In this document: one piece after another, positions 15,296 to 36,486 of the stretch
How the letters are laid out: each line of letters starts with the position of its first letter
Numbering within the stretch: position 1 is the first letter of the stretch
From: an uncultured Bifidobacteriaceae bacterium
GTDB taxonomy: Bacteria > Bacteroidota > Bacteroidia > Chitinophagales > UBA10324
Assembly (NCBI GenBank): GCA_964424455.1
Contig: CAYRJA010000004.1
Location: 19,858 to 69,223, forward strand
DNA length: 49,366 nt
Reading direction: 5' to 3'
Notes under the pieces: generated by a model
Databases searched by the model: none
Told to the model about the DNA's origin: nothing
Seen by the model: the letters and a program-made list of their open reading frames with translations, nothing else
Made by a program: the position numbers and the translations under genes

Positions 15296-17659
15296 ATGAA
15301 ATTGCTTTCGGGTTTTTGCCTGATATTCTGCCTGATGATAAAGTTTTCCTTTAGTCAGGACACTTCTAAAATTCTTTCCCCTTCAACTATTCAGTCATTA
15401 ATTAATTCAAAAAGTCCTCAACTCCAGCAGCTTGGAATAACCCCTCAACAGATTCAGAGCGCAACTGATCAGATATTGCCTGAACTGCAAAATGGCAATA
15501 CCGGACAAATTCAGGCAGGAAGCGCTCAGACAAAAACACAGACACCTGTAATCGTTCTCAACCAATCCGATACTATAATTAAGAAAGTACAGCCCCAGCA
15601 ACCGGAAGAGGAAAAACTTCCCCACTCAAATATTTTTGGTATTGACTATTTCAGAAATCAGATACTCAGCACATTCAATAAATCTTCTGATATGCAGGCT
15701 CCTGATAATTACATCATCGGAGTAGGAGATAAGCTTGCTGTAAATGTATGGGGCTATTCAAGTTTCAGTAGTGTTTACACAGTGGACGAAACCGGCTCTA
15801 TCTTTCCTTCTCAAACAGGAAAGATTTATGTAAAAGGACTGACATATAAAGATGCACAGGCATTAGTCAGGAGCCGCTTCGGTACTTTCTTAGATTTAAG
15901 AAATTCACAGATTGAAATTATTCTGACTTATTCAAGAGTTATTCAGGTGAATATTGTAGGTGAAGTGTTAACCCCAGGCACTTTTACAATGCCGGCAACC
16001 AATACAGTATTTAATGCATTGGTGGCGGCTCAGGGTCCTTCCAATACAGGTTCGCTGAGAAAGATTTATGTAAAGCGAAACGGACAAACTGCAAAGACAC
16101 TGGATGTGTACCAGTTTCTTTTGAACCCGGATGGGAAGGAAGATTATTTCTTACAGAACAACGATTATATTTTTGTTCCGCCTGTTAGCCGGCATGTTAA
16201 AATTGGAGGTGAAGTGCTTCGCCCCTATATATATGAATTGATTGAGAATGAAAACCTGATGAAACTGTTAGGCTATGCCGGTGGACTTACCAGTAAAGCT
16301 TACACAGGAAGTATTCAGATTGAAAGATATGTTGGCAACGAGTTTCGTTTAATTGATTTGAAGTTAGATAGTCTGAAAGAAGCAAAGGGTGATTTTGTGT
16401 TACAGAATGGAGATAATATTATTATCAATGCATTACCTGAGCAATTGTTAACATTAGTTAAAATCAACGGGCCTGTAGTACAACCGGGACAGTACTCTTT
16501 TACTGAGGGGGAAAAACTTTCAGATTTGTTTGCAAAAAATCCATTGCAAAAGAATGCATTATTAGACCGCGGTTATATCATTCGTACAGATGAAAATGAT
16601 TTTTCAAAAAAATATTTGTCATTTAACCCGGGGAATGTATTAAAGGATAAAAATTCTCCGGATAATCTTCAGTTACAGAATCTGGATGTAATAAATCTTT
16701 TTGCAAAGAACAATTACACCAATGAGTTTACCGTAAAAATTTCGGGAGCAGTAAGAAGCGAGGGTGAGTTTCCGTTTGGAGAAGGAATGACATTACAGGA
16801 TATTCTCTATTATTCAGGAGGATTGAGGCCTGAGGCAGCAAATAACAGAATTGAAATTTCCAGAGTAATTAAAACGGATGCAGATAAAAGTGTAACACCT
16901 ATCCATGTTATTGTACAAAGTATGGAGATAGGGAAAGACTTGTCTATTGATGCAGCAGCAGCAGGTTATAAATTAGAGCCGTACGATGAAATTGTAGTAA
17001 GAACTGTTGCAAATTACAAGCGTCCTGATAATGTTACTATCAATGGAGAAGTGCTTTATCCCGGAACTTATTCAATGCTTGATAAAACGGAACGAATCAG
17101 CAGTTTAATTAAGCGGGCAGGCGGTTTAACACAGTGGTCTTATGGTGAAGATGCTATTCTCTACAGAAAAAATGAAGACAAGGGGTTTGTACTGATGCAT
17201 TTAGACAGGGCATTAAAGAAACCGAATAACAAGTACGATTTTATTTTGCGTCCAGGTGATTTAATCACCATTCCGAAAGCCACGAACATTGTAACACTTG
17301 CAGGATGTATCCGCTTTCCGTTTGTGGACACACTGCATCAAATTAATGTTCCATATACACAGGGAAAAAGAGCCAAATTTTATATCAAAAAGTATGGATT
17401 AGGTTTTGATAAAAATTCAAAACGAGTAATGACTTATTCCATTAACAGCGGACAAAATGTAAAAGGGTGTCATCGTTTCTTGTTATTCAATGTTTATCCT
17501 AAGGTAGAGAATGGTGCAACTGTCTTTGTGCCGATTAAACCTTTGAAAGAGCGTGCGTTTGAAGAAAAGAATAAAGTGGATTGGAATTCAACGATTGAAA
17601 ATATTACAGTAAAACTTACTGCTATTGCAACACTTGCCATCCTGCTTGCCAGATTATAA
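15296..17659 (+). CDS. wza: Outer-membrane polysaccharide export protein (Wza/OPX with multiple SLBB domains)
   Basis: Poly_export motif PDNYIIGVGDKLAVNVWG, repeated SLBB units (VNIVGEVLTPG, VKIGGEVLRP, VKINGPVVQPG, VKISGAVRSEG, VTINGEVLYPG), amphipathic C-terminal helix. Confidence 0.9.
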   Translation: MKLLSGFCLIFCLMIKFSFSQDTSKILSPSTIQSLINSKSPQLQQLGITPQQIQSATDQILPELQNGNTGQIQAGSAQTKTQTPVIVLNQSDTIIKKVQPQQPEEEKLPHSNIFGIDYFRNQILSTFNKSSDMQAPDNYIIGVGDKLAVNVWGYSSFSSVYTVDETGSIFPSQTGKIYVKGLTYKDAQALVRSRFGTFLDLRNSQIEIILTYSRVIQVNIVGEVLTPGTFTMPATNTVFNALVAAQGPSNTGSLRKIYVKRNGQTAKTLDVYQFLLNPDGKEDYFLQNNDYIFVPPVSRHVKIGGEVLRPYIYELIENENLMKLLGYAGGLTSKAYTGSIQIERYVGNEFRLIDLKLDSLKEAKGDFVLQNGDNIIINALPEQLLTLVKINGPVVQPGQYSFTEGEKLSDLFAKNPLQKNALLDRGYIIRTDENDFSKKYLSFNPGNVLKDKNSPDNLQLQNLDVINLFAKNNYTNEFTVKISGAVRSEGEFPFGEGMTLQDILYYSGGLRPEAANNRIEISRVIKTDADKSVTPIHVIVQSMEIGKDLSIDAAAAGYKLEPYDEIVVRTVANYKRPDNVTINGEVLYPGTYSMLDKTERISSLIKRAGGLTQWSYGEDAILYRKNEDKGFVLMHLDRALKKPNNKYDFILRPGDLITIPKATNIVTLAGCIRFPFVDTLHQINVPYTQGKRAKFYIKKYGLGFDKNSKRVMTYSINSGQNVKGCHRFLLFNVYPKVENGATVFVPIKPLKERAFEEKNKVDWNSTIENITVKLTAIATLAILLARL

Positions 17660-17681
17660 AAGTGAAAAAATACGGATATAA

Positions 17682-18779
17682 ATGAGTGAACAAATTATCC
17701 ATAAAGACGAGACTGAAATAGACTTTGTCGCAATAGGTGATCGTATAAAGAAGTCGTTCTTCTATCTACTTAGAAGATGGTGGATTATATTAATAGCTGT
17801 TGTTATTGGAGGAATACTGGGATTAGCATTATCAAAATGGTACGGAACAAAATATGTAGCTAACGCAGCTTTTACAGTGCAGGGGCAATCGCAAACTTCG
17901 GCAGTACTTAACTCAGCGCTGTCACTCGCTTCCTCACTGGGATTAGGAAGTAAAAGTTCCGGCGGTGATTATGACAATAACTTTTTTGCCAGCTTAATTC
18001 AATCGAGACGGGTGCTGAAAGAAAGCCTCCTGGAGAAAGATGTAGTTAATGGAAATAAAGCCACGTTGGCAGAACATTATATACGCATTTACGGAATGGA
18101 CAAAACAATATTGGGCAATGAGTCATTTCTTTCTGATTTTTCGTTTAAGCACTTTACGCTTAATTCCCTTACTGCTGCGGAGGATAGTGTTTTGACTATA
18201 GTTTACAATAAAATTATAAATAAGAATTTAGTGGTTAATTACGATGACAGCAAGCCGTTCAATGCTGTTACACTTACCACCTATTCAAGAGACCTGTCAA
18301 AGAATCTGATGAAGCATTTGATTAATAATACTTCAAGGTATTACATGGAAAATATTTACGAGTTGAATAATAGCAACCTGAAAATTGCGGAGTTCCGGCT
18401 TGATTCACTCTCCAATGCGCTGAAAGAAATGGATAACAAAGTAGCAGCGATGAAAGACAATGCTAATAATATTATAAAGCAATCAGGATTAGTTGCATTA
18501 AATGCCGCCATCAGAGACCAGGGGCTTTTAAATATTCAGTATTCATCTGCTGTGAATAATTATGAACTTGCCAAAGTAGCATTGATAACAAACATTCCCA
18601 TTCTGAATGTTATAGATGCTCCTTCATTTTCTACAGAAGTAAAATTTATCCCTATGATAATAGCCATAATCGTAGGAGGATTTTTAGCTGGGTTATTTGT
18701 TGGCGGATTTTTGTGGATGAGATTCCTTATTGTAGGTAAAACAAGAAATATGAAAGCGCCTGCAACTCCTGATAATTAA
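17682..18779 (+). CDS. Polysaccharide co-polymerase / chain-length determinant (Wzz/GumC-like, no kinase domain)
   Basis: EIDFVAIG N-terminus, two TM helices flanking a coiled-coil periplasmic region, PILNVIDAP motif, short C-tail lacking Walker A. Confidence 0.85.
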   Translation: MSEQIIHKDETEIDFVAIGDRIKKSFFYLLRRWWIILIAVVIGGILGLALSKWYGTKYVANAAFTVQGQSQTSAVLNSALSLASSLGLGSKSSGGDYDNNFFASLIQSRRVLKESLLEKDVVNGNKATLAEHYIRIYGMDKTILGNESFLSDFSFKHFTLNSLTAAEDSVLTIVYNKIINKNLVVNYDDSKPFNAVTLTTYSRDLSKNLMKHLINNTSRYYMENIYELNNSNLKIAEFRLDSLSNALKEMDNKVAAMKDNANNIIKQSGLVALNAAIRDQGLLNIQYSSAVNNYELAKVALITNIPILNVIDAPSFSTEVKFIPMIIAIIVGGFLAGLFVGGFLWMRFLIVGKTRNMKAPATPDN

Positions 18780-18807
18780 TTCAATATTATTGATTTCATT
18801 TGCGCTC

Positions 18808-19559
18808 ATGACAAATTTGTTATCCCGGCTATTCGGCAGTAAAAAAAAAACACTTCACCTGAGTTAAGGGTGGTAGTGGATATTCACTCCCATTTTATTC
18901 CCGGTATTGATGATGGTGTTCAGTCAAAAGATGAATCATTACACCTGATTACTCAGATGAGTCATCTGGGGTACAAGAAACTGATAACCACTCCTCATAT
19001 TTTCTTTGGAGTGTATAACAACACACCGGAAATTATTCTTTCCGGATTAGAAAAAATGAGAGATGCCGTCCGAAGCGCCGGATTAAATATCCAGCTCGAA
19101 GCTGCCTCTGAATATTTTTTCGATGAGAAATTTATTGAGAGTGTAAAAAAAAGCAATCTGCTTACATTCGGAGATAAATATGTTTTGTTTGAGCTTGCAT
19201 CAATGACAAAACCACCACAACTGGAGGAAATGGTATTTGAGTTAAATACACTCGGATACAAACCGGTACTTGCCCATCCTGAGCGGTATGTTTATTTTCA
19301 CACCCCCGATTTAGAGGAGTATCACAAGTTGCATGACATGGGTTTATTATTTCAGTTGAATGTCTTATCACTTGCAGCATTTTATTCTGTACCTATTCGG
19401 AAATATGCGCGCCAGCTTATCAAGAGCGGTTTAGTGGACTTGGTCGGGTCAGATATGCATAATCAAAGGTATCTTAACGAGTTTAAGTTTGCCTTAGAGG
19501 ATAATTACTACATTGACCTGATTAATTCAGGAAAAATATTAAATAACCAACTACTGTAG
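18808..19559 (+). CDS. cpsB: PHP-family tyrosine-protein phosphatase (CpsB/CapC), apparently frameshifted at an A10 tract near the 5' end
   Basis: DIHSHFIPGIDDG, TTPH, LAHPERY, GSDMH. ATG 18808 (MTNLLSRLFGSKKK) reaches TAA unless one A is added at 18841-18850, which gives ...KKKNTSPELRVVVDIHSH and a 250-aa protein. In-frame GTG at 18870 is the alternative start. Confidence 0.85.
18841..18850 (+). repeat. A10 homopolymer inside the 5' end of cpsB
   Basis: Ten consecutive A, the longest homopolymer I noticed in the window. Confidence 0.95.
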
Positions 19560-19565
19560 CAGTTT

Positions 19566-20120
19566 ATGCCGTTTGTAAAAACAGAATTTCCAGGGCTTGT
19601 AATATTTGATCCTGTAATCTTTAAAGACAACAGAGGATACTTCTACGAAAGTTTCAACGCACGAACTTTTGAGAAGGAAGGAATCACGCAGCCGTTTGTA
19701 CAGGATAATCAGTCCTTTTCAGAAAAGGGAACTTTGCGCGGACTCCATTACCAACTGGAACCTTATGCACAGGCAAAATTAGTCAGGGTAATTGATGGAG
19801 AAGTTTTGGATGTGGCAGTGGATCTTCGTGCAGGTTCTCCAACATTCAAAAAATCATTCAGTATTATTTTGTCCGGAGAAAATGCCAAACAGTTATATGT
19901 GCCTCGCGGATTTGCACACGGATATGCCGTACTGAGTGAAACAGCAACATTCTTTTACAAGTGTGACAATTTCTATTCAAAAGAAAACGAAGGAGGAATT
20001 CATTATGCTGATCCGGAATTGATGATTGATTGGATGCTGGATGAAAAAGAAATTCTTCTTTCAGAAAAAGACAAAGCGAACCCTTTGTTTAAAAATGCAA
20101 AAATGAATTTTGTTTATTAA
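19566..20120 (+). CDS. rfbC: dTDP-4-dehydrorhamnose 3,5-epimerase
   Basis: DNRGYFYESF, FVQDNQSFS, TLRGLHYQ, YVPRGFAHG, YKCDNFY. Confidence 0.97.
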   Translation: MPFVKTEFPGLVIFDPVIFKDNRGYFYESFNARTFEKEGITQPFVQDNQSFSEKGTLRGLHYQLEPYAQAKLVRVIDGEVLDVAVDLRAGSPTFKKSFSIILSGENAKQLYVPRGFAHGYAVLSETATFFYKCDNFYSKENEGGIHYADPELMIDWMLDEKEILLSEKDKANPLFKNAKMNFVY

Positions 20121-20128
20121 TACATCAG

Positions 20129-20989
20129 ATGAATAAAACAATTTTAGTAACAGGGTCTGACGGACAAGTAGGAAACGAAATCCGGCAACTGGCAGCGAAG
20201 TATTCTCAATTCAATTTCTTATTTACAGATTATCTGCAACTAGATATAACAGACAGAAAAGCGATTGAAAATTATTTTAACGGGAAGAAAATTGATATTG
20301 TAATTAACTGTGCAGCTTATACAGCAGTTGATAAAGCGGAAACTGAAACAGATAAAGCAAGTTCAATAAACACAACTGCTGTACAGTATCTTGCTGAAAT
20401 CTGTAACACCTTTCAAATTCCTCTTATTCATATTTCAACTGATTTTGTTTTTGATGGAAAGAAAAAGTCTCTATATACAGAAGAAGATATTCCAAATCCT
20501 TTAGGTATTTATGCTTCTTCAAAACTTGAAGGAGATAAGCAAGCGCTTAGGGCAAATCCTAAAACAGTGGTGGTACGAACTTCATGGGTATATTCACCAT
20601 TCGGCAACAACTTTGTAAAAACCATGTTGAGGTTGGGAAAAGAAAAACCGGAACTTCGTGTAGTCAGCGACCAAACCGGATCACCTACTTATGCAAGAGA
20701 TTTAGCAGAGGTCTTACTCACGATAGCTGCCAAAATTGAAACTGTAAAGCAATACGGAATTTTTAATTACTCTAACAGAGGCAACATTACATGGTACGAT
20801 TTCGCAAAAGCCATTCTTGAGATAAAAGGAATAAAAACTCCTGTAACACCTATAACTACTGCAGAATTTCCAACACTGGCAAAACGCCCTTCCTACAGTA
20901 CGCTTGATTTGACAAAAATCCAAAAGGTATATGGTGTTACAGTTAAGGATTGGAGAGAAAGTTTAACGGATTGTTTACAGAAACTATAA
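20129..20989 (+). CDS. rfbD: dTDP-4-dehydrorhamnose reductase
   Basis: ILVTGSDGQVG, INCAAYTAVDKAE, HISTDFVFDG, YASSKLEG, DQTGSPTYARDLA, AKRPSYSTLD. Confidence 0.97.
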   Translation: MNKTILVTGSDGQVGNEIRQLAAKYSQFNFLFTDYLQLDITDRKAIENYFNGKKIDIVINCAAYTAVDKAETETDKASSINTTAVQYLAEICNTFQIPLIHISTDFVFDGKKKSLYTEEDIPNPLGIYASSKLEGDKQALRANPKTVVVRTSWVYSPFGNNFVKTMLRLGKEKPELRVVSDQTGSPTYARDLAEVLLTIAAKIETVKQYGIFNYSNRGNITWYDFAKAILEIKGIKTPVTPITTAEFPTLAKRPSYSTLDLTKIQKVYGVTVKDWRESLTDCLQKL

Positions 20990-20991
20990 CT

Positions 20992-21768
20992 ATGCTGGAT
21001 AAAGTAGAAATTAAAGAGCTGATTGCTATTGCAGAAGAAGCAGGAGATGCCATCATGAAGATTTATGCGCAAGAGTTTTCAGTGGAAATGAAAGAGAATA
21101 AGACCCCACTGACCGAAGCAGATAAAAAGTCAAATGAGATAATTCTTAATCGGTTGAAAGAATTATATCCTGAAATACCATTCATATCAGAGGAAACAAA
21201 AGCAACACCTTTCAGCGAAAGAAAAGGGTGGGAATTCTTCTGGCTGATTGATCCGCTTGACGGAACAAAAGAATTTATAAAGAAGAATGATGAGTTTACA
21301 GTGAACGTTGCGCTGATTCAAGGAGCAAGACCGGTTGCAGGAGTGGTATATGCACCGGCAAAAAAAATGATGTTTGCTGCACAGAAAGGAGAGGATAGTT
21401 TTAAAATTGAAAGTGGAAGGTTTATCAAACTTGAACCACAAAAGAACTATAATGAACTGTCACACCTGCGGGTGGTAGGCAGTCGTTCACACAACAGCCC
21501 CGAAACAGATGCATTTGTTAATCAACTGAAAGAAGCAGGGAAGGAGATAGAATTTATCTCAAGCGGAAGTTCACTTAAAATCTGTTTAGTGGCAGAGGGG
21601 AAAGCAGATGTATATCCCCGATTTGGTCCAACTATGGAGTGGGATACCGCAGCAGGGCAGGCAGTGTTGGAAATTGCTGGAGGAAAACTGACGGAAACAT
21701 CTTTCCTTAAACAACTTTCTTACAATAAAGAAAATTTATTGAATCCATTCTTTATTGCTTCATGGTAA
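20992..21768 (+). CDS. cysQ: 3'(2'),5'-bisphosphate nucleotidase
   Basis: TPLTEADKKS, FWLIDPLDGTKEFIKKNDEFTVNVALI, GSSLKICLVAEG, PRFGPTMEWDTAAG. ATG 20992 lies 2 nt after the rfbD stop. Confidence 0.95.
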   Translation: MLDKVEIKELIAIAEEAGDAIMKIYAQEFSVEMKENKTPLTEADKKSNEIILNRLKELYPEIPFISEETKATPFSERKGWEFFWLIDPLDGTKEFIKKNDEFTVNVALIQGARPVAGVVYAPAKKMMFAAQKGEDSFKIESGRFIKLEPQKNYNELSHLRVVGSRSHNSPETDAFVNQLKEAGKEIEFISSGSSLKICLVAEGKADVYPRFGPTMEWDTAAGQAVLEIAGGKLTETSFLKQLSYNKENLLNPFFIASW

Positions 21769-22125
21769 TCATTGATTTACCAGAGCATCAGAATAAGTCA
21801 TGATGTGCGCGATGCGTTCATGATTTACAGAGTAGAAGATTTGTTTTCCAACTCTCCGCGTATTAACTATTTGCAAGCCCCTCAATATTTTTAAATGTTG
21901 CGAAGCTACAGATTGCTCTATACGCAGCTTCACATAAAGATCTGTTACATTCACCGACCGGTTCTGATTTATCAGATTAATCATAGATTGACGCAGCGGA
22001 TGATTAACTGCACGAATAACTTTTGCAGCTTTCTTTACCAGTTCGGAGTTTACAATTGTTTGAGGTTCCTGAATGACAGATATTTCAGCATCTGTGTTGG
22101 TTAAAGTTTGCAATTCTTCGTTCAT
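21769..22125 (-). CDS. ArsR/SmtB family transcriptional regulator (no Cys)
   Basis: RAVNHPLRQSMI, VTDLYVKLRIEQSVASQHLKILR winged HTH, RRVGKQIFYSVN. Confidence 0.9.
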   Translation of the reverse strand: MNEELQTLTNTDAEISVIQEPQTIVNSELVKKAAKVIRAVNHPLRQSMINLINQNRSVNVTDLYVKLRIEQSVASQHLKILRGLQIVNTRRVGKQIFYSVNHERIAHIMTYSDALVNQ

Positions 22126-28833: not shown

Positions 28834-30166
28834 ATTGTTTGTCTTTTTTTGTCTCTATGTAATAGTAGAAATAAATTATAGAAATAAAAAGAATAGTGAT
28901 TCCCGGTCCCGGAGTAAAAAAACTTCCGCCTGCTGTAACACCTCTCAGGTAAAAAAACAGCAGGTAGTATTTACAGGATTGAAGAAATACATCACTCCGG
29001 TACAATTCTATCTTTCTTAACCAGATGATGGAAAGAAGAAATTCAATATGAACAATCAATACGCCTAATAATCCATAGATGAAAACAGATCCCAGTAGTC
29101 CTATATCAGCGGGATAAAAATATCCCATTGAATTGGAGGGATTACCTCCCCAGCGTTCAGACCATTTGCCGTTTCCAAAAATAATTGAAGCCGGATGCTT
29201 CTGAACAAGATGAGCTGCTTTCACAAATACAAGAATGCGCGCATCTGCAGATTGTTCACCGCTTTCTTCACCTTGCAACACATCCAGCACATTGGAATAC
29301 ATTGTTCTGATGTTGGAGAGTGTCTCGGGTTTAATCACATAGAAAACACCGGCAGCAATAGTGACTGTAAAAAGAAAAATCATAGAGTAGAAAACAAACC
29401 TTTTTAAACTCAAATTAAATATCATATAGAGGAAGAGCGTTCCCGAAAGCATGATAATCAATCCTCTTTTCTGATACTCGAAAAAGATGTAACAGAAAAA
29501 AAGAAGAAAGTAAATGAGGTATTTTGCCTGTCGGGTTCTTATAAATTTGATAAAATAATAAATGGCAGAGAAAGCAATCAGGAAGATGTCAAACCTGAAA
29601 CCACATCCTCCTTTTACCTGATTGCAGAACACAAATGAAGTACCGTAATACTGAGCCGGATTAAAAATTATTGCAGCGATAATATATATACCCAACAATA
29701 TCCATGACAGGGACAAGAAGGTGTCGCGAATATTGAAGAGTGTAATCCACTTTGTTTTCAGCAGGTAGAAAATAACAAGACCAAAAATTAAATAAGCCCA
29801 TTCAAACTGAGTAGTGATGCCATAGATAATCGGCTGCCCCCAGAAAAGGAATGATACAAGTCCTGAGTAAACAGGTATGAAAAGAAATAAAAGCAGAACG
29901 AGTATGTCAAAAGAAGTCAACTTTGCTCCTTTAACCAGAAGGTCTGCCACATAAAAAAAAAGAAAGACAAAGAATAATGCAAAAAGAAGATTGGACAGAG
30001 GCCATTGTATCCAGTTGAGAGGGGAACGACCGAGAGTTCCAAACTGCAGGATGAACAGTAGTGCCAGGAAAAAGGATTTGATGAACTTATCCGTTGTCCA
30101 TTTTGGCAAACTAATATCAAACGAGGGCAGCAATGTTTCTTGTTTTTCGATAATATAATTCAGCAA
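28820..30166 (-). CDS. wzy: Wzy-type polysaccharide polymerase
   Basis: About 11-12 TM segments, with a periplasmic loop SADARILVF...SIIFGNG...ADIGLLGSVFIYGLLG of the O-antigen ligase/polymerase type. Confidence 0.75.
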   Translation of the reverse strand: MLNYIIEKQETLLPSFDISLPKWTTDKFIKSFFLALLFILQFGTLGRSPLNWIQWPLSNLLFALFFVFLFFYVADLLVKGAKLTSFDILVLLLFLFIPVYSGLVSFLFWGQPIIYGITTQFEWAYLIFGLVIFYLLKTKWITLFNIRDTFLSLSWILLGIYIIAAIIFNPAQYYGTSFVFCNQVKGGCGFRFDIFLIAFSAIYYFIKFIRTRQAKYLIYFLLFFCYIFFEYQKRGLIIMLSGTLFLYMIFNLSLKRFVFYSMIFLFTVTIAAGVFYVIKPETLSNIRTMYSNVLDVLQGEESGEQSADARILVFVKAAHLVQKHPASIIFGNGKWSERWGGNPSNSMGYFYPADIGLLGSVFIYGLLGVLIVHIEFLLSIIWLRKIELYRSDVFLQSCKYYLLFFYLRGVTAGGSFFTPGPGITILFISIIYFYYYIETKKDKQYVLE

Positions 30167-30187: not shown

Positions 30188-31297
30188 TTAATTGCCGTTG
30201 TTGTTGTGTTTTAATTTATCTCCGCAATTTCTTTTTCCCAGTATGATGCCCGCTATCAGTAATGATTCTTTCCTGTTCCCGGTAATGAAATTCTTTATCA
30301 CCTTGAACATCAGCCGCAGGTAAGCTACCGGTAATAAAAATGGATAGAACTTTCTGTAAAATATCAGCATATTCCGGTACTGAAAACAGGCAACCGGCAG
30401 GGGTAGTTGTTTAGCCAGCATTTTTTCTCCTGTAGTGGCTCCTTGTTTGTGATAAATTTTACTTTGACAAGCATAAGAAATAGCCCATCCTTTTTTTCTT
30501 GCACGAACAGCCCAATCGAGTTCCTCGTAGTACATAAAGTATTTTTCTTCAAGCAGCCCTACATCTTTAATAAAGGATTTTGAACAAATCATGGAGCAGC
30601 CCATCGGATAATCAATGGCAATATTTCCTTTATCAAATTGACCATGGTCAGTTTCTCCGGTGCCCAGATGATAAAACAAGGTGGTTCTCAGGTTGTACAT
30701 TCCGCCTACTGCCTGTAACACTTCAGGGCTTTCGTAAAACAGGACTTTAGATCCCACCAATCCGTTTTTTTGATTCTTATTATCGGGCAGTTCCATCTTG
30801 TTTACTAAAGCGGTAAGAGCATGCTCATCTGTAACAGTATCGTTGTTCAGCAGCCACACATATTCCATGTCACCCTTTGCAAGGGCATATCGGATGCCTG
30901 TGTTACAGCCGGCGGCAAAACCCATATTTTTTTTACCCTGAATAAATATCAAAGGATACTTACCGGAGTCGTTTGTTTTGTTCTCAAGAGATTCTTCTTT
31001 CTTCTTGTTGCCGCCATGCAGCGCTTCCTCTTCGCTGTAAACTATATATGGAATAGGTTTTTTTCCGGGAGGAAGGGTAAGGTGGGAAAGTGGCTGAGGA
31101 GTTGAATAAGATATTGTTTCTGCTCCCTCTGCCCATGTTGTAAAGTGATGTATGGAATGATTGGTAGAATTATTATCAACCACTACTATCTGATAACAGG
31201 GGTATTTATTTTTTAGAATGCTTTCCATGCACTCAATTGTATCCATCCACTGATTCAGATTAACTAAAACTATATAAATTTTTTTTTCTTCAGACAT
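30188..31297 (-). CDS. Glycosyltransferase family 2 (rhamnosyltransferase-like)
   Basis: IYIVLVN, IVVVDNNS, NMGFAAGCNTG, VWLLNNDT, YFMYYEELDW, IYHKQG. ATG 31297 follows the upstream stop by 2 nt. Confidence 0.9.
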   Translation of the reverse strand: MSEEKKIYIVLVNLNQWMDTIECMESILKNKYPCYQIVVVDNNSTNHSIHHFTTWAEGAETISYSTPQPLSHLTLPPGKKPIPYIVYSEEEALHGGNKKKEESLENKTNDSGKYPLIFIQGKKNMGFAAGCNTGIRYALAKGDMEYVWLLNNDTVTDEHALTALVNKMELPDNKNQKNGLVGSKVLFYESPEVLQAVGGMYNLRTTLFYHLGTGETDHGQFDKGNIAIDYPMGCSMICSKSFIKDVGLLEEKYFMYYEELDWAVRARKKGWAISYACQSKIYHKQGATTGEKMLAKQLPLPVACFQYRNMLIFYRKFYPFLLPVAYLRLMFKVIKNFITGNRKESLLIAGIILGKRNCGDKLKHNNNGN

Positions 31298-31299
31298 TG

Positions 31300-32265
31300 T
31301 TATCGGGTATCTGCTGTCCACGAAGAAAGATCCGTATTTATCAGCGAAGAAAGTTTATTAATATCATCGTGGTATATACCGGCTAAAAACTTTCTTTCTT
31401 CTGCGGTCATTACAGGTTTGTTTTTGCTTGTAAAGAAAACCATCTTCAATTTAGTGATAAAACTTTTAGATAAATTCTCTTTTATAAAGCGCACAATATT
31501 ATTTTGTAAGAGTCGTCCAACCAACTTTGATTTAGGAACATAAGCAACATTATATGACTTTGAAAAATCAAATTTATAATCTTCGGATAACTCAAGGAAT
31601 TTGCAAATATCAGTCAGTACTTTCTCCGGATAGTTTTTGAAATCTTCATACAAAAATATTTTAACCTGTTCTCCCGGAAAGGAATCTGTAAATCGTTTCA
31701 CCTGCTCATAATACATTCCAAGTTCAATATAAAGATTTGAAATGCCCCAACCCTTTTCTGTACTTGACATATCTTTTTTCAACTCTTCCATAAAATTTCC
31801 TGATTCATAACCTGTCCTCAAATCCATCAGATAATGACTGAACACACGCTCTACCGGATTGCGAAGTATCATGATGATTTTAGCATCAGGAAATTTCTGA
31901 GAAATATTTTTTGCCGCCTGAGTTGAATACAGATAAGCATTCGTCATTTCACCTATTGCCTTTTTGTTTTCAGCAAAGCGGAATAAACTTTTATACTTTT
32001 CCCAATCACTGATAAACGCCTGGAAGATTTCAGTTTTCATCCCTGATTCCATCCATTTGTCAATGTTGATGTTTACATCTCTTGCATAATTTGGTCTGAA
32101 TTTTTTATTGTCAATATCAGTAGCAAAAAAATATACTTCTTTGATGGGAGGAAGGTAAATCTGAGGATGCTGACGCAGATAATTGTAAAGAGATGTAGTG
32201 CCTGATTTTGCAGCGCCGGCAATAAAAAAATTCGGTAATGGCTCTTTCATATACTCTTTCATCAT
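31300..32265 (-). CDS. PAPS-dependent sulfotransferase (Sulfotransfer_1-like)
   Basis: 5'-PSB PNFFIAGAAKSGTTSLY, HPQIYLPPIKE, 3'-PB LRNPVERVFSHY. Confidence 0.92.
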   Translation of the reverse strand: MMKEYMKEPLPNFFIAGAAKSGTTSLYNYLRQHPQIYLPPIKEVYFFATDIDNKKFRPNYARDVNINIDKWMESGMKTEIFQAFISDWEKYKSLFRFAENKKAIGEMTNAYLYSTQAAKNISQKFPDAKIIMILRNPVERVFSHYLMDLRTGYESGNFMEELKKDMSSTEKGWGISNLYIELGMYYEQVKRFTDSFPGEQVKIFLYEDFKNYPEKVLTDICKFLELSEDYKFDFSKSYNVAYVPKSKLVGRLLQNNIVRFIKENLSKSFITKLKMVFFTSKNKPVMTAEERKFLAGIYHDDINKLSSLINTDLSSWTADTR

Positions 32266-32266
32266 A

Positions 32267-33172
32267 TTACTCGTGTTTCCAGATGGAAAGGTCTGTATTC
32301 AGCAATTTTTCTAATTCCTGAATTTCACTCTTAAAATTTTTCAGATACAACTGCCGGCGAAATTCAGGAGTGATTTTTTCAGGAGTAATTATTTTTTCGT
32401 TCAGCCGTATCAGTCCGTTCTTAATTTTTTTTCTCCATGATTTTGACGGAAGAAAAATCTTTAAATACTTCAGCGGTGAATTCTCTTTGTAAAGAAGATG
32501 TGCAAACCATCTTGAAGCAACTTGTCTGGAAGGATTGCTCTTTACCACATCGAAATGGAAATTTGTATCTACATCAAGAAATGAAGTTATCTTCTTTAGT
32601 GTCGCATCCAGATTATGCTTAATGTCCTTTTCAAAAATCAGAATGAGAAAATTTTCTTTAGGGAAAAATTCAAAATATTTTTTGAGTTGAGCAAGATAGT
32701 GTCCTCTGCTAATATAGCTGAAGCTTATGATGTCATCTCTTTTATTGCTTTTCATCCGTTGTTCTTCTGCAGCTATGGCTTCTTCAAAAGATAAAGGTTC
32801 AAAACCTTTAAGCTTACTCATCAGATAGTGTGAATAGGCCCGATCCACAGGATCCCGCAGTGTTACAATAAATTTAGTTTTTGCACCTAAGGTGCCCTTT
32901 ATTCTTGAAGCGGTTTTACCGGCAAAGAATATATAGCTCGGATCAATTTCACCGATTGCTTTTTCGTCTGATACTTTCTGAAAATAGCTGGAATAAAATT
33001 CTATTCCTTTCCTGTAATCCTCATCATACTGAAAAAATTTTGTTTCCTTTTTCTCCGGTAAAAAAATCTGCGGATGATTTTTGAGAATATCAAACAGGGT
33101 AGTGGTACCTGCTTTCTGAACCCCTATGCAGATAAAATCAGGAACAGACATAGCAAGAGCATGGTTTTGCAT
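32267..33172 (-). CDS. PAPS-dependent sulfotransferase (Sulfotransfer_1-like)
   Basis: PDFICIGVQKAGTTTLF, HPQIFLPEKKETKFF, GEIDPSY, LRDPVDRAYSHY, RGHYLAQLKKY. Confidence 0.92.
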   Translation of the reverse strand: MQNHALAMSVPDFICIGVQKAGTTTLFDILKNHPQIFLPEKKETKFFQYDEDYRKGIEFYSSYFQKVSDEKAIGEIDPSYIFFAGKTASRIKGTLGAKTKFIVTLRDPVDRAYSHYLMSKLKGFEPLSFEEAIAAEEQRMKSNKRDDIISFSYISRGHYLAQLKKYFEFFPKENFLILIFEKDIKHNLDATLKKITSFLDVDTNFHFDVVKSNPSRQVASRWFAHLLYKENSPLKYLKIFLPSKSWRKKIKNGLIRLNEKIITPEKITPEFRRQLYLKNFKSEIQELEKLLNTDLSIWKHE

Positions 33173-33196
33173 TTGCGGAGGTAAATAAATATTTCA

Positions 33197-34561
33197 TTAC
33201 TTCTTATCTTCTAAAGCTAATTTAAAGTTGAACAATGTTCGGAGATTTATTGTGTAGAAACCATAATAGTAACGCACAATTATCATAGGAACAATATTGA
33301 TGATGAAATAGCCGACTGTATTGATTATTGCCGCCGCTATAATTCCATATTCAGGAATGAAGAGAATATTGAGAATAACCGTAAGAACTGTGGCGCCAAG
33401 AAGTACATTCCGGTTAATTTTTTGTTTACCGGTCATAATTAAAACATTACTTACCGGACCGGTTGCTGCATTAATAAACTGCCCTGCACATAGAATAATC
33501 AGTACAAGTTTACCTTGTTTGAATTCTTCGCCAAATATTCCCAAAAAGAATTCAGGAAATACAACAAACAATATCAGCAGCGGAACAGAACTCCAGAAGA
33601 TAAGTTTGGTAGCATTCTGTGTAATGAGGGACATCTTTCTAACATCTCCCTTTGCATAAAGTTCTGCAATTTTGGGTGCAACGGTCAGTAGAATGGCAGT
33701 AAGAGAAATAGAAGTAATGGTTGATATTCGGAATGCTACTTTATATATGCCGAGCGCTTCTTCGGTTGCAAACCTGCCGAGCAGAAAGGAATCTGTCCAT
33801 GTTCTGAATATCTGGAGTATGGCAGTGGTAAACAAAGTAAATGCAATAGAAAATTTCTCAAAAAAGTTGATGGTATCTGTAACAGATATATTTATTAAAC
33901 CTGATTTACTCCACCACCAGAATATGGAGAGTAAAGCCGAAATAGTTAACCCGGTAAGGTAGGCGAGCAGCGGAACTTCTTTGTTGCTGTAAAAAAATAA
34001 CATACTGCCCAGCATAACACAGGCAATGATGGATACACTTGCTCCTTCAAGAAAAGTATAGAGTAAAATCTTCTTCATACCCCTTAAGCAATCAGCATGA
34101 ATACCCAGCAATACAAGAGGCAAAATAGAAAAAGCGGCAAGCTGAATGTAGGATTCAATATCCGGTTTCAGAAAAACATGGACTGCAATAAAACGAGAAG
34201 AAAAATAAACAACACAGGAAAAGATAATGGAAGTAATAGTGGTGAAGCGGAGCGAACGGTAATACAGGTCTTTTATATGCGACCATTTGCCCTGTGCGGA
34301 ATATTCTGCGGTAGAGCGCATCAGCAAAATATTGAATCCCATTTTTGAAACAGTTGAGAAAAACTGTAACACAGTTTGATAAATAGTATAAATGCCGGTA
34401 CCGGCGGCGCCATATCCTCTGGCAATCAATAGAGTGAAAAGATAATTGAACAGTATAGCCAAAACCCGCATTCCAAGCGCTACAGCGCCGCCTCTGACAA
34501 GCTCCTTGTTGTCTTTATCTTTTATGCCTGATCCGAGTTTGCGGGAAATTTTCTTTATCAA
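33197..34561 (-). CDS. wzx: Wzx-type flippase (MOP superfamily)
   Basis: 12+ TM segments, DSFLLG, LGIYKVAFRI, PKIAELYAKG, LMTGKQK-like motif, GIIAAAI. TTG start. Confidence 0.9.
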   Translation of the reverse strand: MIKKISRKLGSGIKDKDNKELVRGGAVALGMRVLAILFNYLFTLLIARGYGAAGTGIYTIYQTVLQFFSTVSKMGFNILLMRSTAEYSAQGKWSHIKDLYYRSLRFTTITSIIFSCVVYFSSRFIAVHVFLKPDIESYIQLAAFSILPLVLLGIHADCLRGMKKILLYTFLEGASVSIIACVMLGSMLFFYSNKEVPLLAYLTGLTISALLSIFWWWSKSGLINISVTDTINFFEKFSIAFTLFTTAILQIFRTWTDSFLLGRFATEEALGIYKVAFRISTITSISLTAILLTVAPKIAELYAKGDVRKMSLITQNATKLIFWSSVPLLILFVVFPEFFLGIFGEEFKQGKLVLIILCAGQFINAATGPVSNVLIMTGKQKINRNVLLGATVLTVILNILFIPEYGIIAAAIINTVGYFIINIVPMIIVRYYYGFYTINLRTLFNFKLALEDKK

Positions 34562-34583
34562 CTGTGATATAAACTTACAGCGA

Positions 34584-34591
34584 CAAAGCTA
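34584..34591 (-). promoter_or_regulatory. Internal -7 promoter box upstream of wzx
   Basis: Minus strand reads TAGCTTTG, 22 nt upstream of TTG 34561. Confidence 0.55.
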
Positions 34592-34619
34592 AAATTTCTT
34601 CATTGTAAACTGAACATAC

Positions 34620-35606
34620 TTACCTCAACTGAAGCATTTTCTCTACCACATCATTTTTCACTATATACAGATTGTTGAGTTGCTCTATATCGGGTACTGA
34701 AAAACCGTGAGTTCTTCTGAAATTCAAATCAAATATTTCCACTTTATTTACCGTCGTTGCACCGGAATGAAGATACCGTGTCCGAATAGCAGATATGCCG
34801 CAGAAGTAATTCTTTGTTGCAACAGAAAAGTCAGCGCCTCGTCCCCATCCATCGGTTTTAACTTTATGAATCAATTCCCAACTTCGGGAATAAATATTGA
34901 GAAAGGAACGACCGCTGTCAAGCAGCCAGTATTGACCATTTATTTTCCTTACGGTATGAGGCGCTTTTAATTTTAATTCTATTCGTTTATCAGAGTGAAT
35001 ATCTAATACACCACCATTCCCATGTCCTTTGATAATCTTTTGTGCAATTCTTTTTATCAGTTGTTTGCCTGTAACATGATGCACCAACACATAAGTCGCT
35101 CCTTCGAAAGTTTCAAAAACCTGATTGCAATGAAATTTGTCTATCCTCTGTATGTTTGAATCATCCGACACATCTTCGGGCATATATTCTACATTTTTTT
35201 TGTTAGCTACTAATTTAATCCGGCTAACCACTTTCCTGCCCTGAATATCATAACTGATAATCTCGTCATAATAAGTATTGGTTATCCAGAGAAGATTTCC
35301 AATCATTGAAAGTTCGTGAACACCCCTGAGTTTTGGAATTTTTATTTCTTCAACCTTTTTTATAGTGAGATTAATTTCAAAAAGCTGTGTGCCGGTTGTC
35401 ATAAAAAAATGAAAGCGGTTATCCGGTTTCCATACCAGTGAACTTACTCCCAGTTCACCCCACAAATGGAAGAATGGTATTTCTGAAATAATTTTTGAAT
35501 TGTCAGCGTATTGAATACTCTTAATATTGTTGCGGGGCAATTTTCTGTCGTTCTCATTTGCATTGAGCGAACCAATAATTAAAATATTTTCATCATTGCC
35601 TAACAT
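34620..35606 (-). CDS. Hypothetical beta-propeller protein, DUF4915/TIGR03032-like
   Basis: GVHEL, FHCNQV, LKAPHTVRKINGQYWLLDSG and GWGRGADF resemble DUF4915 motifs (PHSPRW...WVLNSG, GFTRGL). ATG 35606 lies just after the upstream stop. Confidence 0.5.
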   Translation of the reverse strand: MLGNDENILIIGSLNANENDRKLPRNNIKSIQYADNSKIISEIPFFHLWGELGVSSLVWKPDNRFHFFMTTGTQLFEINLTIKKVEEIKIPKLRGVHELSMIGNLLWITNTYYDEIISYDIQGRKVVSRIKLVANKKNVEYMPEDVSDDSNIQRIDKFHCNQVFETFEGATYVLVHHVTGKQLIKRIAQKIIKGHGNGGVLDIHSDKRIELKLKAPHTVRKINGQYWLLDSGRSFLNIYSRSWELIHKVKTDGWGRGADFSVATKNYFCGISAIRTRYLHSGATTVNKVEIFDLNFRRTHGFSVPDIEQLNNLYIVKNDVVEKMLQLR

Positions 35607-35607
35607 T

Positions 35608-36486
35608 TCAGGCAATGTTATTATATCCGAGTTGAATCAGCAAGGGATTATTCTGAATTTTCTTGTACAGTTGAACAGATTCGTTGTCGGCTAAGAACGA
35701 ATACTTCCTGCTGTTGTCCACATTGGCAACACTCTGTTTCAGCACACTTTCTGTAACAGGCAATTGAATAAAGTCAGTTACTCTTTTGATATGCTCCAGA
35801 GGAGATTCCAGAAAATCCTCATATCGGATGGTTAAGAATTTTTCGGAATAAGTTTTTTCATGTTCAAGATTCAGCCGGATATACTCGTTCCAGAGTTTCA
35901 CTCCATTGTTTAAGTCGGTAACATAATAAGATTGATTGTAGAGAAATTTTTTGCTCAGAAAAAATTCACGCCGTTTTTGTTTCAAATTAATTTTAAATCT
36001 TTTTTCAATTCGCAATTCCCGTTCTCTCAGACTGCACGCCACATCAACAGGGTTTCTGTAAATATTAATAACGAGCGCATCAGGGAAAATTTTTTTCCAA
36101 ACAGGAAGCGTAATCGAATTAACGGGGTCTTTCCATCCCCATGGAAAATTCAGCGAGCGGATGGATCTGAATTTTAGCGTGTTAAACCATCCAAGATAAT
36201 TTTCTCTTCTTAATGTCCCCAAATGCCAATTGATAACCCGATTCACATTTTTCAGATAATGTGCATTTACGTACTTGAAATTTTCAGGGAAATCCCATGT
36301 CGCATTGGCTTGCGCCAGCAGCCAGCGGTTGATACGCTGAAAGTAAAATGCCTCATAGTTTTTCTCTTTTTCATTTCCTACAAACACTCCTGCTTTCTCC
36401 AACACTTTTGTCAGCATGGTAGTACCTGAACGGTGCATTCCTGTAATAATTACAGGTGGAATATTCTGATTAGAATTAGATTTCAA
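35608..36486 (-). CDS. Sulfotransferase (Sulfotransfer_3-like)
   Basis: PVIITGMHRSGTTML, WGWKDP, IYRNPVDVACSL, IRYEDFLESP. TTG start. Confidence 0.9.
   Translation of the reverse strand: MKSNSNQNIPPVIITGMHRSGTTMLTKVLEKAGVFVGNEKEKNYEAFYFQRINRWLLAQANATWDFPENFKYVNAHYLKNVNRVINWHLGTLRRENYLGWFNTLKFRSIRSLNFPWGWKDPVNSITLPVWKKIFPDALVINIYRNPVDVACSLRERELRIEKRFKINLKQKRREFFLSKKFLYNQSYYVTDLNNGVKLWNEYIRLNLEHEKTYSEKFLTIRYEDFLESPLEHIKRVTDFIQLPVTESVLKQSVANVDNSRKYSFLADNESVQLYKKIQNNPLLIQLGYNNIA

What the first reader, a model, noticed from the sequence alone, without database searches (positions are those of the whole stretch)
15296..36486. Candidate complete pathway for a sulfated surface polysaccharide with its own hydrolase
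Seen: Wza, a PCP, CpsB, RmlC/D and CysQ on one arm. Three sulfotransferases, Wzx, Wzy, GT2, GT4, a GH-A hydrolase and a DUF4915-like protein on the other, with gaps or overlaps mostly under 25 nt. Known: Wzx/Wzy systems export repeat-unit polymers, PAPS-dependent sulfotransferases release PAP, and CysQ removes that inhibitory PAP. Bacterial sulfated EPS pathways are characterised in few cases (for example cyanobacterial synechan). Inference: a rhamnose-containing, multiply sulfated capsule or EPS in a Bacteroidota lineage, with built-in PAP detoxification and periplasmic or surface processing. This is the strongest candidate for an undescribed system in the window.
Basis: partly seen in the sequence, partly recalled or inferred. 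Interest (0 to 1): 0.75.

Follow-up and report, generated by a model that had tools for sequence, protein, structure and literature searches.

The report
Sulfated surface polysaccharide gene cluster, incomplete
A wastewater-sludge Bacteroidota genome carries a two-part gene cluster that most likely builds, sulfates, trims and exports a surface polysaccharide; the kind of system is known from other bacteria, but this version recurs in many uncultured relatives and has never been studied.

Summary
The observed genes are real. The + arm holds Wza, a kinase-less PCP, CpsB, RmlC, RmlD and CysQ. The - arm holds three divergent PAPS-type sulfotransferases, a DUF4915 protein, Wzx, GT2, a Wzy/WaaL-superfamily membrane protein, a lipoprotein and GT4. 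The lipoprotein has a GH51/GH79-like clan GH-A fold and both catalytic glutamates.

"Complete pathway" is not supported. The 49-kb window has no initiating phosphoglycosyl transferase, rmlA/B, PAPS synthesis genes or BY-kinase. Three unrelated genes (ArsR, amino-acid permease, M13 peptidase; 4.25 kb) separate the arms.

The - arm is a recurrent cassette in Chitinophagales and Flavobacteriales MAGs. Its core is Wzx, sulfotransferase(s), Wzy-like, GH-A lipoprotein and sulfotransferase. The functions missing here sit beside homologous cassettes in relatives:
- CysQ, Wza, Wzi, PCP and a PAPS synthase in L012
- a WbaP-type transferase and CysC-CysD-CysN in L022
- WbaP and Wzc in L066
- RmlD and CysQ in L007/L008

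Other relatives, including a 77%-identical one (L025), lack the + arm nearby.

Best reading: a Wzx/Wzy-dependent, multiply sulfated, probably rhamnose-containing capsule or EPS, with cytoplasmic sulfation and periplasmic or surface glycanase processing. It is a new variant of a known kind (synechan; Cobetia and Vibrio sulfated capsules). Interest is moderate.

The parts
15296..17659 (+). Wza-type outer-membrane polysaccharide export protein (OPX), 787 aa
   Evidence: Poly_export, SLBB and SLBB_2 domains. Below the equivalog cut-offs of the EpsE and PEP-CTERM exporter models.
17682..18779 (+). Polysaccharide co-polymerase (Wzz domain), 365 aa, no kinase domain
   Evidence: PF02706, 29.4 bits against a cut-off of 25.5. 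No NCBIfam hit. L012 has the same kinase-less architecture.
18870..19559 (+). CpsB/CapC-type PHP tyrosine phosphatase
   Evidence: PF19567, E 2.9e-41. Its expected BY-kinase partner is not in the window.
19566..20120 (+). RmlC, dTDP-4-dehydrorhamnose 3,5-epimerase
   Evidence: TIGR01221, 227 bits against a cut-off of 155.75.
20129..20989 (+). RmlD, dTDP-4-dehydrorhamnose reductase
   Evidence: TIGR01214, 311.9 bits against a cut-off of 224.
20992..21768 (+). CysQ, 3'(2'),5'-bisphosphate nucleotidase (PAP phosphatase). The longest ORF starts at a TTG at 20950; the likely start is the ATG at 20992.
   Evidence: TIGR01331, 295.6 bits against a cut-off of 228.8. An in-frame ATG lies 2 nt after the RmlD stop. 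CysQ also lies beside homologous cassettes in L007, L008 and L012.
21769..22125 (-). ArsR/SmtB-family regulator; neighbour whose membership is uncertain
   Evidence: NF033788 above cut-off, with weak BigR (sulfite-sensing) similarity. It keeps the same position after CysQ in L007 and L008.
22366..23826 (+). Amino-acid permease; intervening gene, not part of the pathway
   Evidence: AA_permease_2, E 1.1e-52. Collinear with L025 down to window position 22334.
23893..25938 (-). M13 (PepO-like) peptidase; intervening gene, a conserved neighbour of GT4 in relatives, with no inferred role
   Evidence: Peptidase_M13_N and Peptidase_M13. Adjacent to GT4 in L003, L005, L006, L025 and L026, and separated from it by one extra gene in L007.
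26021..27202 (-). GT4 glycosyltransferase
   Evidence: Glycos_transf_1 and Glyco_transf_4. It is the last gene of the cassette in most relatives.
27199..28833 (-). Clan GH-A (GH51/GH79-like) lipoprotein, predicted retaining glycoside hydrolase
   Evidence: No Pfam or NCBIfam hit. Signal peptide with a conserved Cys; invariant R89-x-P-G-G, N160, E187-L-G-N-E191 and T-E324-W. Model pLDDT 83.6. Fold matches to GH51 at E 1.8e-21 and to GH79. Profile hit to Araf51 at E 4.9e-8 with both catalytic motifs aligned. Its start overlaps the Wzy-like stop by 14 nt.
28820..30166 (-). Wzy/WaaL-superfamily polytopic membrane protein, assigned as repeat-unit polymerase
   Evidence: No Pfam hit at E=10. Distant homologues carry PF04932. 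Invariant R234, R310 and D354. The model (pLDDT 84.3) matches only WaaL 7tpg, probability 1.0, TM about 0.5. The QKRG and SADSR arginines align to WaaL.
30188..31321 (-). GT2 glycosyltransferase
   Evidence: Glycos_transf_2, E 1.5e-12. Sub-threshold similarity to rhamnosyltransferase TIGR01556.
31300..32265 (-). Sulfotransferase ST3, the type kept in all related cassettes
   Evidence: Sulfotransfer_3 and Sulfotransfer_1. Hits PDB 3rnl at E 3.4e-46 and heparan-sulfate N- and 3-O-sulfotransferases at 1e-9 to 1e-7. PAPS motifs GxxKxGTT and RNPxxRxxS are intact. It is 37-43% identical to the sulfotransferase next to the GH gene in distant loci.
32267..33172 (-). Sulfotransferase ST2
   Evidence: Sulfotransfer_1, E 1.5e-18. 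PAPS motifs intact.
33197..34561 (-). Wzx (MOP-family) flippase
   Evidence: Polysacc_synt, MatE and Polysacc_synt_3.
34620..35615 (-). DUF4915/TIGR03032-family protein, probably a beta-propeller enzyme of unknown reaction
   Evidence: PF16261, 34.5 bits against a cut-off of 35. 116 homologues, nearly all carried as PF16261. 23 invariant columns, mostly His, Arg, Asn and Gly. Found in polysaccharide loci, often beside a sulfotransferase or GT2.
35608..36486 (-). Sulfotransferase ST1, paired with DUF4915 by an 8-nt overlap
   Evidence: Sulfotransfer_3, E 3.4e-21. Its PAPS loop reads HRSGTT. The ST1-DUF4915 pair is kept in L003, L004, L006, L025 and L026.

Best explanation
The interval holds two operon-like arms that most likely cooperate to make a Wzx/Wzy-dependent, multiply O-sulfated surface polysaccharide (capsule or EPS). 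The polymer probably contains rhamnose.

Proposed sequence of events (all steps inferred, none shown):
1. A phosphoglycosyl transferase encoded elsewhere primes undecaprenyl phosphate.
2. GT2 and GT4 complete a short repeat unit on the cytoplasmic face.
3. Three mutually divergent, soluble, PAPS-type sulfotransferases sulfate different positions of the lipid-linked unit. The DUF4915 enzyme may add a further modification.
4. CysQ, co-transcribed with the export genes, hydrolyses the PAP by-product.
5. Wzx flips the anionic unit across the membrane.
6. The Wzy/WaaL-superfamily protein polymerises it.
7. The translationally coupled clan GH-A lipoprotein cleaves or trims the polymer outside the cytoplasm, for chain-length control or release.
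8. PCP and Wza export the product.

The - arm is a self-contained, recurrent cassette. The + arm supplies export, the last two dTDP-rhamnose steps and PAP removal. The pathway is not complete within the window.
For: PAPS-binding motifs are intact in all three sulfotransferases, which share only 20-24% identity with ST1. ST3 resembles carbohydrate sulfotransferases.

The Wzy/WaaL superfamily assignment comes.

The cassette recurs. Of 18 genome loci found with the GH-like profile, 11 have the Wzy-like gene beside the GH-like gene (directly upstream, or with one sulfotransferase between them in L007/L008). Twelve have a sulfotransferase within about 1.5 kb.

The functions missing here lie next to homologous cassettes elsewhere:
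- L012/L065: CysQ-Wza-Wzi-PCP-Wzx-ST-Wzy-GH-GT4, followed by a fused ATP-sulfurylase/APS-kinase
- L022: WbaP-type transferase, Wzx, ST, ST, Wzy, GH, ST, ST, then CysC-CysD-CysN
- L015 and L066: WbaP-type transferase; L066 also has Wzc
- L007 and L008: RmlD-CysQ-ArsR directly upstream of the cassette

CysQ starts 2 nt after RmlD in the Wza operon, so the + arm is itself tied to PAPS chemistry. The two arms are physically joined in an independent assembly.
Against: No chemistry or expression data exist, and no RNA runs were found.

The window lacks an initiating transferase, rmlA/B, PAPS synthesis genes and a BY-kinase.

Three unrelated genes separate the arms. The close relative L025 has the cassette without the + arm within 7 kb. 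L001, L009, L010 and L011 have it among housekeeping genes.

The Wzy-like protein cannot be told apart from a ligase or oligosaccharyltransferase of the same superfamily.

The wider GH-like family (356 representatives at E<=1e-30) also occurs outside polysaccharide loci: L014, L017, L020, L021 and L064.
Confidence: 0.6

Rival explanations
1. The - arm makes a sulfated O-antigen, lipooligosaccharide or protein-linked glycan. The Wzy/WaaL-superfamily protein polymerises for LPS, or acts as a ligase or O-oligosaccharyltransferase. The + arm (Wza, PCP, CpsB, RmlCD, CysQ) serves a different glycan, and the two are neighbours only by genome history.
For: The cassette stands alone, with no OPX or PCP within 5-10 kb, in L001, L009, L010, L011 and L025. 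The only structural match of the Wzy-like protein is the WaaL ligase. There are only two GTs, so the glycan unit is short. The arms converge across unrelated genes.
Against: In L012/L065 the cassette follows Wza-Wzi-PCP on the same strand, as in a single operon. In L066 a Wzc gene lies at the edge of the locus on the opposite strand. CysQ lies next to both the export genes and the cassette in the window, and next to the cassette in L007/L008. The Wzx-plus-Wzy pairing is typical of polymerising clusters, while ligases are normally encoded elsewhere (general knowledge).
Confidence: 0.2
2. The GH-A lipoprotein is not a trimming hydrolase. It is an obligatory maturation partner of the polymerase, either removing a transient sugar from the flipped repeat unit or acting as a transglycosylase.
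For: The Wzy stop and the GH start overlap by 14-17 nt in the window, L001, L003, L006 and L025. Adjacency holds in 11 of 18 loci. The nearest folds, GH51 enzymes, are mostly exo-acting (plus general knowledge).
Against: Nothing here distinguishes exo from endo action. In L007 and L008 a sulfotransferase gene sits between Wzy and GH, and L012 has a 39-nt gap, so the coupling is not strict.
Confidence: 0.12
3. The sulfotransferases act on a non-carbohydrate acceptor (a lipid or small molecule), and the polysaccharide itself is unsulfated.
For: Sulfotransfer_1 and Sulfotransfer_3 also include glycolipid and small-molecule enzymes: Stf0, StaL and TEG12 appear among the weak hits.
Against: One to five sulfotransferase genes are interleaved with Wzx, Wzy and GT genes in every related cassette. 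The best characterised matches are carbohydrate sulfotransferases.
Confidence: 0.04

Closest known systems
Synechan (xss) cluster of Synechocystis sp. PCC 6803 (PMC8205485)
   Same: A Wzx/Wzy-type extracellular polysaccharide cluster with dedicated sulfotransferases, glycosyltransferases, PCP and OPX. Sulfation is presumed to occur on the lipid-linked unit.
   Different: It belongs to a different phylum, and no orthology was tested. The paper's main text does not mention CysQ or PAPS, and 'hydrolase' appears there only in a reference title. The present cassette has a conserved Wzy, GH-A lipoprotein and sulfotransferase core, and no dedicated two-component regulators were seen.
Sulfated capsule clusters of Cobetia marina KMM 1449 and Vibrio sp. 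KMM 8419 (PMC11766843, PMC11641403)
   Same: Rhamnose-containing sulfated capsules. Their clusters combine dTDP-Rha genes, GTs and sulfotransferases with PAPS supply. The Cobetia cluster also contains cysQ.
   Different: Those are ABC-transporter (Kps-type) pathways in Gammaproteobacteria, spread over 70-80 genes, with cysDNC inside the cluster. Here the route is Wzx/Wzy with OPX and PCP, PAPS synthesis is absent from the window, and a GH-A enzyme is embedded.
EPS clusters with a built-in glycanase (succinoglycan ExoK, Psl PslG, cellulose BcsZ; general knowledge)
   Same: A glycoside hydrolase encoded inside the biosynthetic operon acts outside the cytoplasm on the nascent polymer.
   Different: Those enzymes are GH16, GH39 and GH8. 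Here it is an unmodelled GH51/GH79-like clan GH-A lipoprotein, coupled to the polymerase gene and always accompanied by sulfotransferases in the cassette-type loci.
GH51 alpha-L-arabinofuranosidases and GH79 beta-glucuronidases/heparanases
   Same: A (beta/alpha)8 barrel with a C-terminal beta-sandwich. The RxPGG, GNE (acid/base) and xEW (nucleophile) motifs align.
   Different: Only 13-17% identity. No Pfam or NCBIfam model is hit. The setting is a biosynthetic operon rather than a catabolic one. The substrate is unknown.

Membership tests
Wzx/Wzy-dependent polysaccharide pathway | MOP-family Wzx flippase | tested here: met
   Polysacc_synt, MatE and Polysacc_synt_3 on 33197-34561.
Wzx/Wzy-dependent polysaccharide pathway | Wzy repeat-unit polymerase | tested here: inconclusive
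   No Pfam hit. Membership of the Wzy_C/WaaL superfamily is shown by distant homologues with PF04932, the fold match to 7tpg and the aligned arginines. Polymerase and ligase cannot be separated.
Wzx/Wzy-dependent polysaccharide pathway | Initiating phosphoglycosyl transferase (WbaP or WecA type) in the locus | tested here: not met
   None among the window ORFs scanned. A WbaP-type gene is present beside homologous cassettes in L015, L022 and L066.
Wzx/Wzy-dependent polysaccharide pathway | OPX (Wza) and PCP export pair | tested here: met
   Poly_export plus SLBB, and a Wzz domain. The PCP lacks a kinase, and no BY-kinase is in the window.
Sulfated-polysaccharide gene cluster (hallmark proposed in PMC11641403: sulfotransferases plus PAPS synthesis in one cluster) | PAPS-dependent sulfotransferase genes with intact PAPS motifs | tested here: met
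   Three genes with the 5'-PSB and 3'-PB motifs conserved.
Sulfated-polysaccharide gene cluster (hallmark proposed in PMC11641403: sulfotransferases plus PAPS synthesis in one cluster) | PAPS synthesis genes (cysDN and cysC, or a sat-cysC fusion) in the cluster | tested here: not met
   Absent from the whole 49-kb window. Present next to homologous cassettes in L012/L065 and L022.
Sulfated-polysaccharide gene cluster | Sulfate esters on the product | not testable with these tools
   Needs chemistry: 35S labelling, NMR or MS.
CysQ (TIGR01331) | Score above the equivalog cut-off | tested here: met
   295.6 bits against 228.8.
Glycoside hydrolase clan GH-A / family GH51 | (beta/alpha)8 barrel with the acid/base Glu after beta-4 (N-E) and the nucleophile Glu after beta-7 | tested here: met
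   Model strands 183-188 and 319-326 precede or carry invariant E191 and E324. Both align to the Araf51 motifs. Fold E 1.8e-21.
Glycoside hydrolase clan GH-A / family GH51 | Family-level sequence membership (CAZy or Pfam model) | tested here: not met
   No Pfam or NCBIfam hit. Of 40 wider family members, only 5 weakly hit Glyco_hydro_cc or GH79n. CAZy/dbCAN was not available.
DUF4915 / TIGR03032 | Pfam gathering score | tested here: inconclusive
   34.5 bits against a cut-off of 35 in the local scan. The same protein and 106 of its 116 homologues carry PF16261 in the precomputed table.
dTDP-L-rhamnose pathway (RmlABCD) | All four enzymes present | tested here: not met
   Only RmlC and RmlD are in the window.

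The most novel reading that the evidence does not exclude
The Wzy-like protein, the GH51/GH79-like lipoprotein and the ST3-type sulfotransferase form the core of an undescribed pathway. It would be widespread in Chitinophagales and Flavobacteriales and would supply the so far unassigned 'sulfated glycosaminoglycan-like' polymers measured in activated and granular sludge EPS. In this reading the GH-A lipoprotein is an obligatory partner of the polymerase, not an optional trimming enzyme.
Probability: 0.25. Interest if true: 0.65.

Novelty: new variant of a known kind. Interest (0 to 1): 0.5.

Why it matters
Few bacterial sulfated polysaccharide pathways are characterised. A 2024 review counts six genera reported to make such polymers (PMC11625862). 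I found no paper describing one in Bacteroidota.

Sulfated glycoconjugates are measured chemically in aerobic and anaerobic granular sludge. The authors of that study state that the bacterial pathways are not well known, and that reference sulfotransferases find few hits (PMC10483923).

This window comes from a sludge metagenome. Its cassette recurs in MAGs whose isolate names suggest activated-sludge and other environmental sources. That gives a concrete candidate gene set, including a marker triad, for finding producers and for engineering sulfated polymers. It also gives context to three unmodelled or unknown protein families: the Wzy-like protein, the GH-A-like lipoprotein and DUF4915.

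Tried and rejected
- Exact-protein look-ups of window proteins, meant to extend the contig beyond the window, found nothing on record. The rest of the genome could therefore not be searched for cysDNC, rmlAB, a phosphoglycosyl transferase or a BY-kinase.
- Rfam and tRNA scans of the window found nothing, so there is no rRNA-based taxonomy.
- The sigma-70 promoter and terminator scan gave counts equal to shuffled sequence. It is uninformative, and Bacteroidota promoters are not covered by it.
- No RNA-seq runs hold the cassette, so co-expression is untested.
- The word-indexed protein search suggested the GH-like family is tiny, with 11 hits. I rejected this after the exhaustive profile search found 356 representatives at E<=1e-30 and 3319 at E<=1e-3.
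- I considered that DUF4915 is a dedicated sulfotransferase partner. Only about a quarter of 34 metagenomic DUF4915 loci have a sulfotransferase within 300 nt, and about a third have one anywhere on the fetched stretch. Others have GT2 or GT4 neighbours only. It is therefore glycan-locus associated, not sulfation-specific.
- The DUF4915 profile against PDB sequences gave only marginal hits, to an intein and to the YncE propeller.
- I checked for a chimeric assembly at the permease gene. Collinearity with L025 runs through the whole gene to position 22334, and an X1 contig spans 18491-22740. Chimerism was rejected.
- A catabolic (PUL-like) role for the GH-like gene was rejected. There are no SusC/SusD genes, and it overlaps the polymerase gene.

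Full report

The + arm runs Wza (15296-17659), a kinase-less Wzz-domain PCP (17682-18779), CpsB (18870-19559), RmlC, RmlD and CysQ. RmlC, RmlD and CysQ score above the NCBIfam equivalog cut-offs. With the in-frame ATG at 20992, CysQ begins 2 nt after the RmlD stop. PAP hydrolysis is therefore packed into the export operon itself.

The - arm runs ST1 (35608-36486), DUF4915-like, Wzx, ST2, ST3, GT2, a 448-aa polytopic membrane protein, a 544-aa lipoprotein and GT4 (to 26021). Eleven of 13 intra-arm junctions are 25 nt or less.

The finding did not say that three unrelated genes fill the 4.25 kb between the arms: ArsR (-), an amino-acid permease (+) and an M13 peptidase (-).

Contigs from an independent assembly of sludge run X1 tile 18020-36847 at even depth. 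One of them spans the + arm, ArsR and the permease 5' end. The segment 22334-36461 is collinear with relative L025. The physical linkage is therefore real.

**The two proteins without Pfam hits.**

The 544-aa protein has a signal peptide ending in a Cys that most homologues conserve. It also has invariant R89-x-P-G-G, N160, E187-L-G-N-E191 and T-E324-W motifs. Its AlphaFold model (pLDDT 83.6) is a (beta/alpha)8 barrel with a C-terminal beta-sandwich. The best PDB matches are GH51 arabinofuranosidases (E 1.8e-21, TM 0.6-0.67), followed by GH79 beta-glucuronidase and heparanase. A family profile hits C. thermocellum Araf51 at E 4.9e-8 over residues 67-451, with ELGNE and TEWN aligned to the enzyme's LGNE and DEWN motifs. 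So "GH-A hydrolase" holds, as a distant, unmodelled relative of GH51/GH79.

The family is not tiny. The word-indexed search gave 11 hits. The exhaustive profile search gave 356 representatives at E<=1e-30, and most of these have no Pfam assignment.

The 448-aa membrane protein has no Pfam hit even at E=10. Two distant homologues carry PF04932. Its model (pLDDT 84.3) has one real PDB match, the WaaL ligase 7tpg. Its invariant arginines R234 and R310 align to WaaL. It belongs to the Wzy/WaaL superfamily. "Polymerase" is inferred from the Wzx context.

**Sulfotransferases.** The three share only 20-24% identity with ST1 yet keep both PAPS-binding motifs. None shows a signal peptide by inspection of the N-termini. 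ST3 resembles a structural-genomics sulfotransferase (3rnl, E 3.4e-46) and the heparan-sulfate N- and 3-O-sulfotransferases. This fits three different regiospecific O-sulfations, carried out in the cytoplasm where PAPS is available.

**Relatives.** A genome scan with the GH-like profile returned 18 loci. All are from MAGs, and all but two are labelled Bacteroidota (mostly Chitinophagales or Flavobacteriales); the exceptions are labelled Deltaproteobacteria and Bifidobacteriaceae.

In 11 loci the Wzy-like gene lies beside the GH-like gene (directly upstream, or with one sulfotransferase between them in L007/L008). In 12 a sulfotransferase lies within about 1.5 kb. The recurrent core is Wzx, sulfotransferase(s), an optional GT2, Wzy-like, GH-like, sulfotransferase(s) and GT4. 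The number of sulfotransferases per cassette ranges from 1 (L012) to 5 (L066). The ST3 type is the best-conserved member, at 37-43% identity where GH and Wzy are 25-29%.

The functions missing from the window appear beside these cassettes:
- L012/L065: CysQ-Wza-Wzi-PCP-Wzx-ST-Wzy-GH-GT4, then a fused ATP-sulfurylase/APS-kinase, a methyltransferase and another GT4.
- L022: WbaP-type transferase, Wzx, ST, ST, Wzy, GH, ST, ST, then CysC-CysD-CysN.
- L015 and L066: a WbaP-type transferase; L066 also has MBOAT, GT4 and a 791-aa Wzc.
- L007 and L008 (Chitinophagaceae, about 50% identity): RmlD-CysQ-ArsR(-)-MBOAT-unknown-Wzx-ST-GT2-Wzy-ST-GH-GT4-dehydratase, followed in L007 by M13. The window looks like this arrangement with the cassette and M13 inverted.

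Against linkage, L025 (Wzy 77% identical) has the cassette, M13 and the permease, and then different genes. L001, L009, L010 and L011 have the cassette between housekeeping genes. The wider GH-like family also occurs outside glycan loci, in L014, L017, L020, L021 and L064.

**DUF4915.** The family has at least 116 members and 23 invariant columns, mostly His, Arg, Asn and Gly, which suggests an enzyme. It sits in polysaccharide loci. Examples are Wza-Wzc-Wzx-ST-DUF4915-ST-GT2-ST-Wzy-MBOAT in a Vicingaceae MAG, and Rml genes-UGDH-ST-DUF4915-Wzx-APS kinase-PHP in Desulfotomaculum arcticum. About a quarter of 34 metagenomic loci have a sulfotransferase within 300 nt, and many others have GT2 or GT4 neighbours. 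No paper mentions this family.

**Mechanism (inferred).**
1. A transferase encoded elsewhere primes the lipid carrier.
2. GT2 and GT4 finish a short repeat unit.
3. The three sulfotransferases, and possibly DUF4915, decorate it in the cytoplasm.
4. CysQ removes the PAP by-product.
5. Wzx flips the unit.
6. The Wzy-like protein polymerises it.
7. The GH-A lipoprotein trims or releases the polymer.
8. PCP and Wza export it.

Rhamnose content rests on RmlC/D and a sub-threshold rhamnosyltransferase similarity of the GT2.

**Comparison with known systems.**
- Synechan (PMC8205485) is the closest Wzx/Wzy analogue with sulfotransferases.
- The Cobetia and Vibrio sulfated capsules (PMC11766843, PMC11641403) are ABC-transporter systems with cysDNC in the cluster, and Cobetia also has cysQ. 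Built-in PAP removal is therefore not new.
- No Bacteroidota pathway was found in the literature searches.
- The window comes from a sludge metagenome. Sulfated glycoconjugates are measured in sludge EPS, but their pathways are unknown (PMC10483923).

**Verdict.** The locus is a credible but incomplete sulfated Wzx/Wzy polysaccharide system: a new variant of a known kind, with a conserved core of Wzy-like protein, GH-A lipoprotein and sulfotransferase. Interest is 0.5.

Noticed in passing
window 13560-15161 (+): A MuiA-family ('mucoidy inhibitor A', DUF4139/DUF4140, TIGR02231 above cut-off) protein is encoded 134 nt upstream of Wza on the same strand. A link to polysaccharide regulation is possible.
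   Followed up: no
window 21769-22125 (-); L007 1268-1612; L008 about 1194-1547: An ArsR/SmtB regulator with weak similarity to the sulfite-sensing BigR abuts the CysQ stop codon. It keeps that position in two Chitinophagaceae MAGs at 46-52% identity. It may regulate the sulfation genes.
   Followed up: partly
window 23893-25938 (-); L003, L005, L006, L007, L025, L026: An M13 (PepO-like) metallopeptidase is the constant downstream neighbour of the cassette's GT4. This holds across relatives down to 66% identity (L007), where one extra gene lies between GT4 and M13. No functional reason is apparent.
   Followed up: partly
window 36620-39073 (-), 39376-41172 (-), 42361-49365 (+, runs off the end): Two T9SS-sorted PKD/Ig-domain proteins and a giant ORF of more than 2335 aa (GEVED, CHU_C-type Ig, BNR_assoc_N and fn3 domains) follow the cluster. 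G+C rises there from about 0.37 to 0.42-0.52.
   Followed up: no
window 2278-4005 (-): A 575-aa protein whose only hit is a weak PMT_2 match (GT-C-type glycosyltransferase, E 0.0035). It could be another envelope glycan enzyme.
   Followed up: no
L007 1824-4230; L018; L027; L066: An MBOAT O-acyltransferase, together with a protein of about 330 aa with no Pfam hit, accompanies several related cassettes. This suggests O-acylation of the same glycans. The pair is absent from the window.
   Followed up: partly
L012 3632-5137: A Wzi capsule-anchoring lectin homologue lies between Wza and PCP in the 'Deltaproteobacteria'-labelled MAG that carries the cassette and a PAPS synthase. This points to a surface-attached capsule in that organism.
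   Followed up: no
window 36686-36774 and 36815-37235: Sludge runs X1 and X2 contain contigs that skip 87 nt at 36686-36774. Runs X1-X4 show dense variant positions in the 3' part of the T9SS PKD gene. This indicates strain-level variation just outside the cassette.
   Followed up: no
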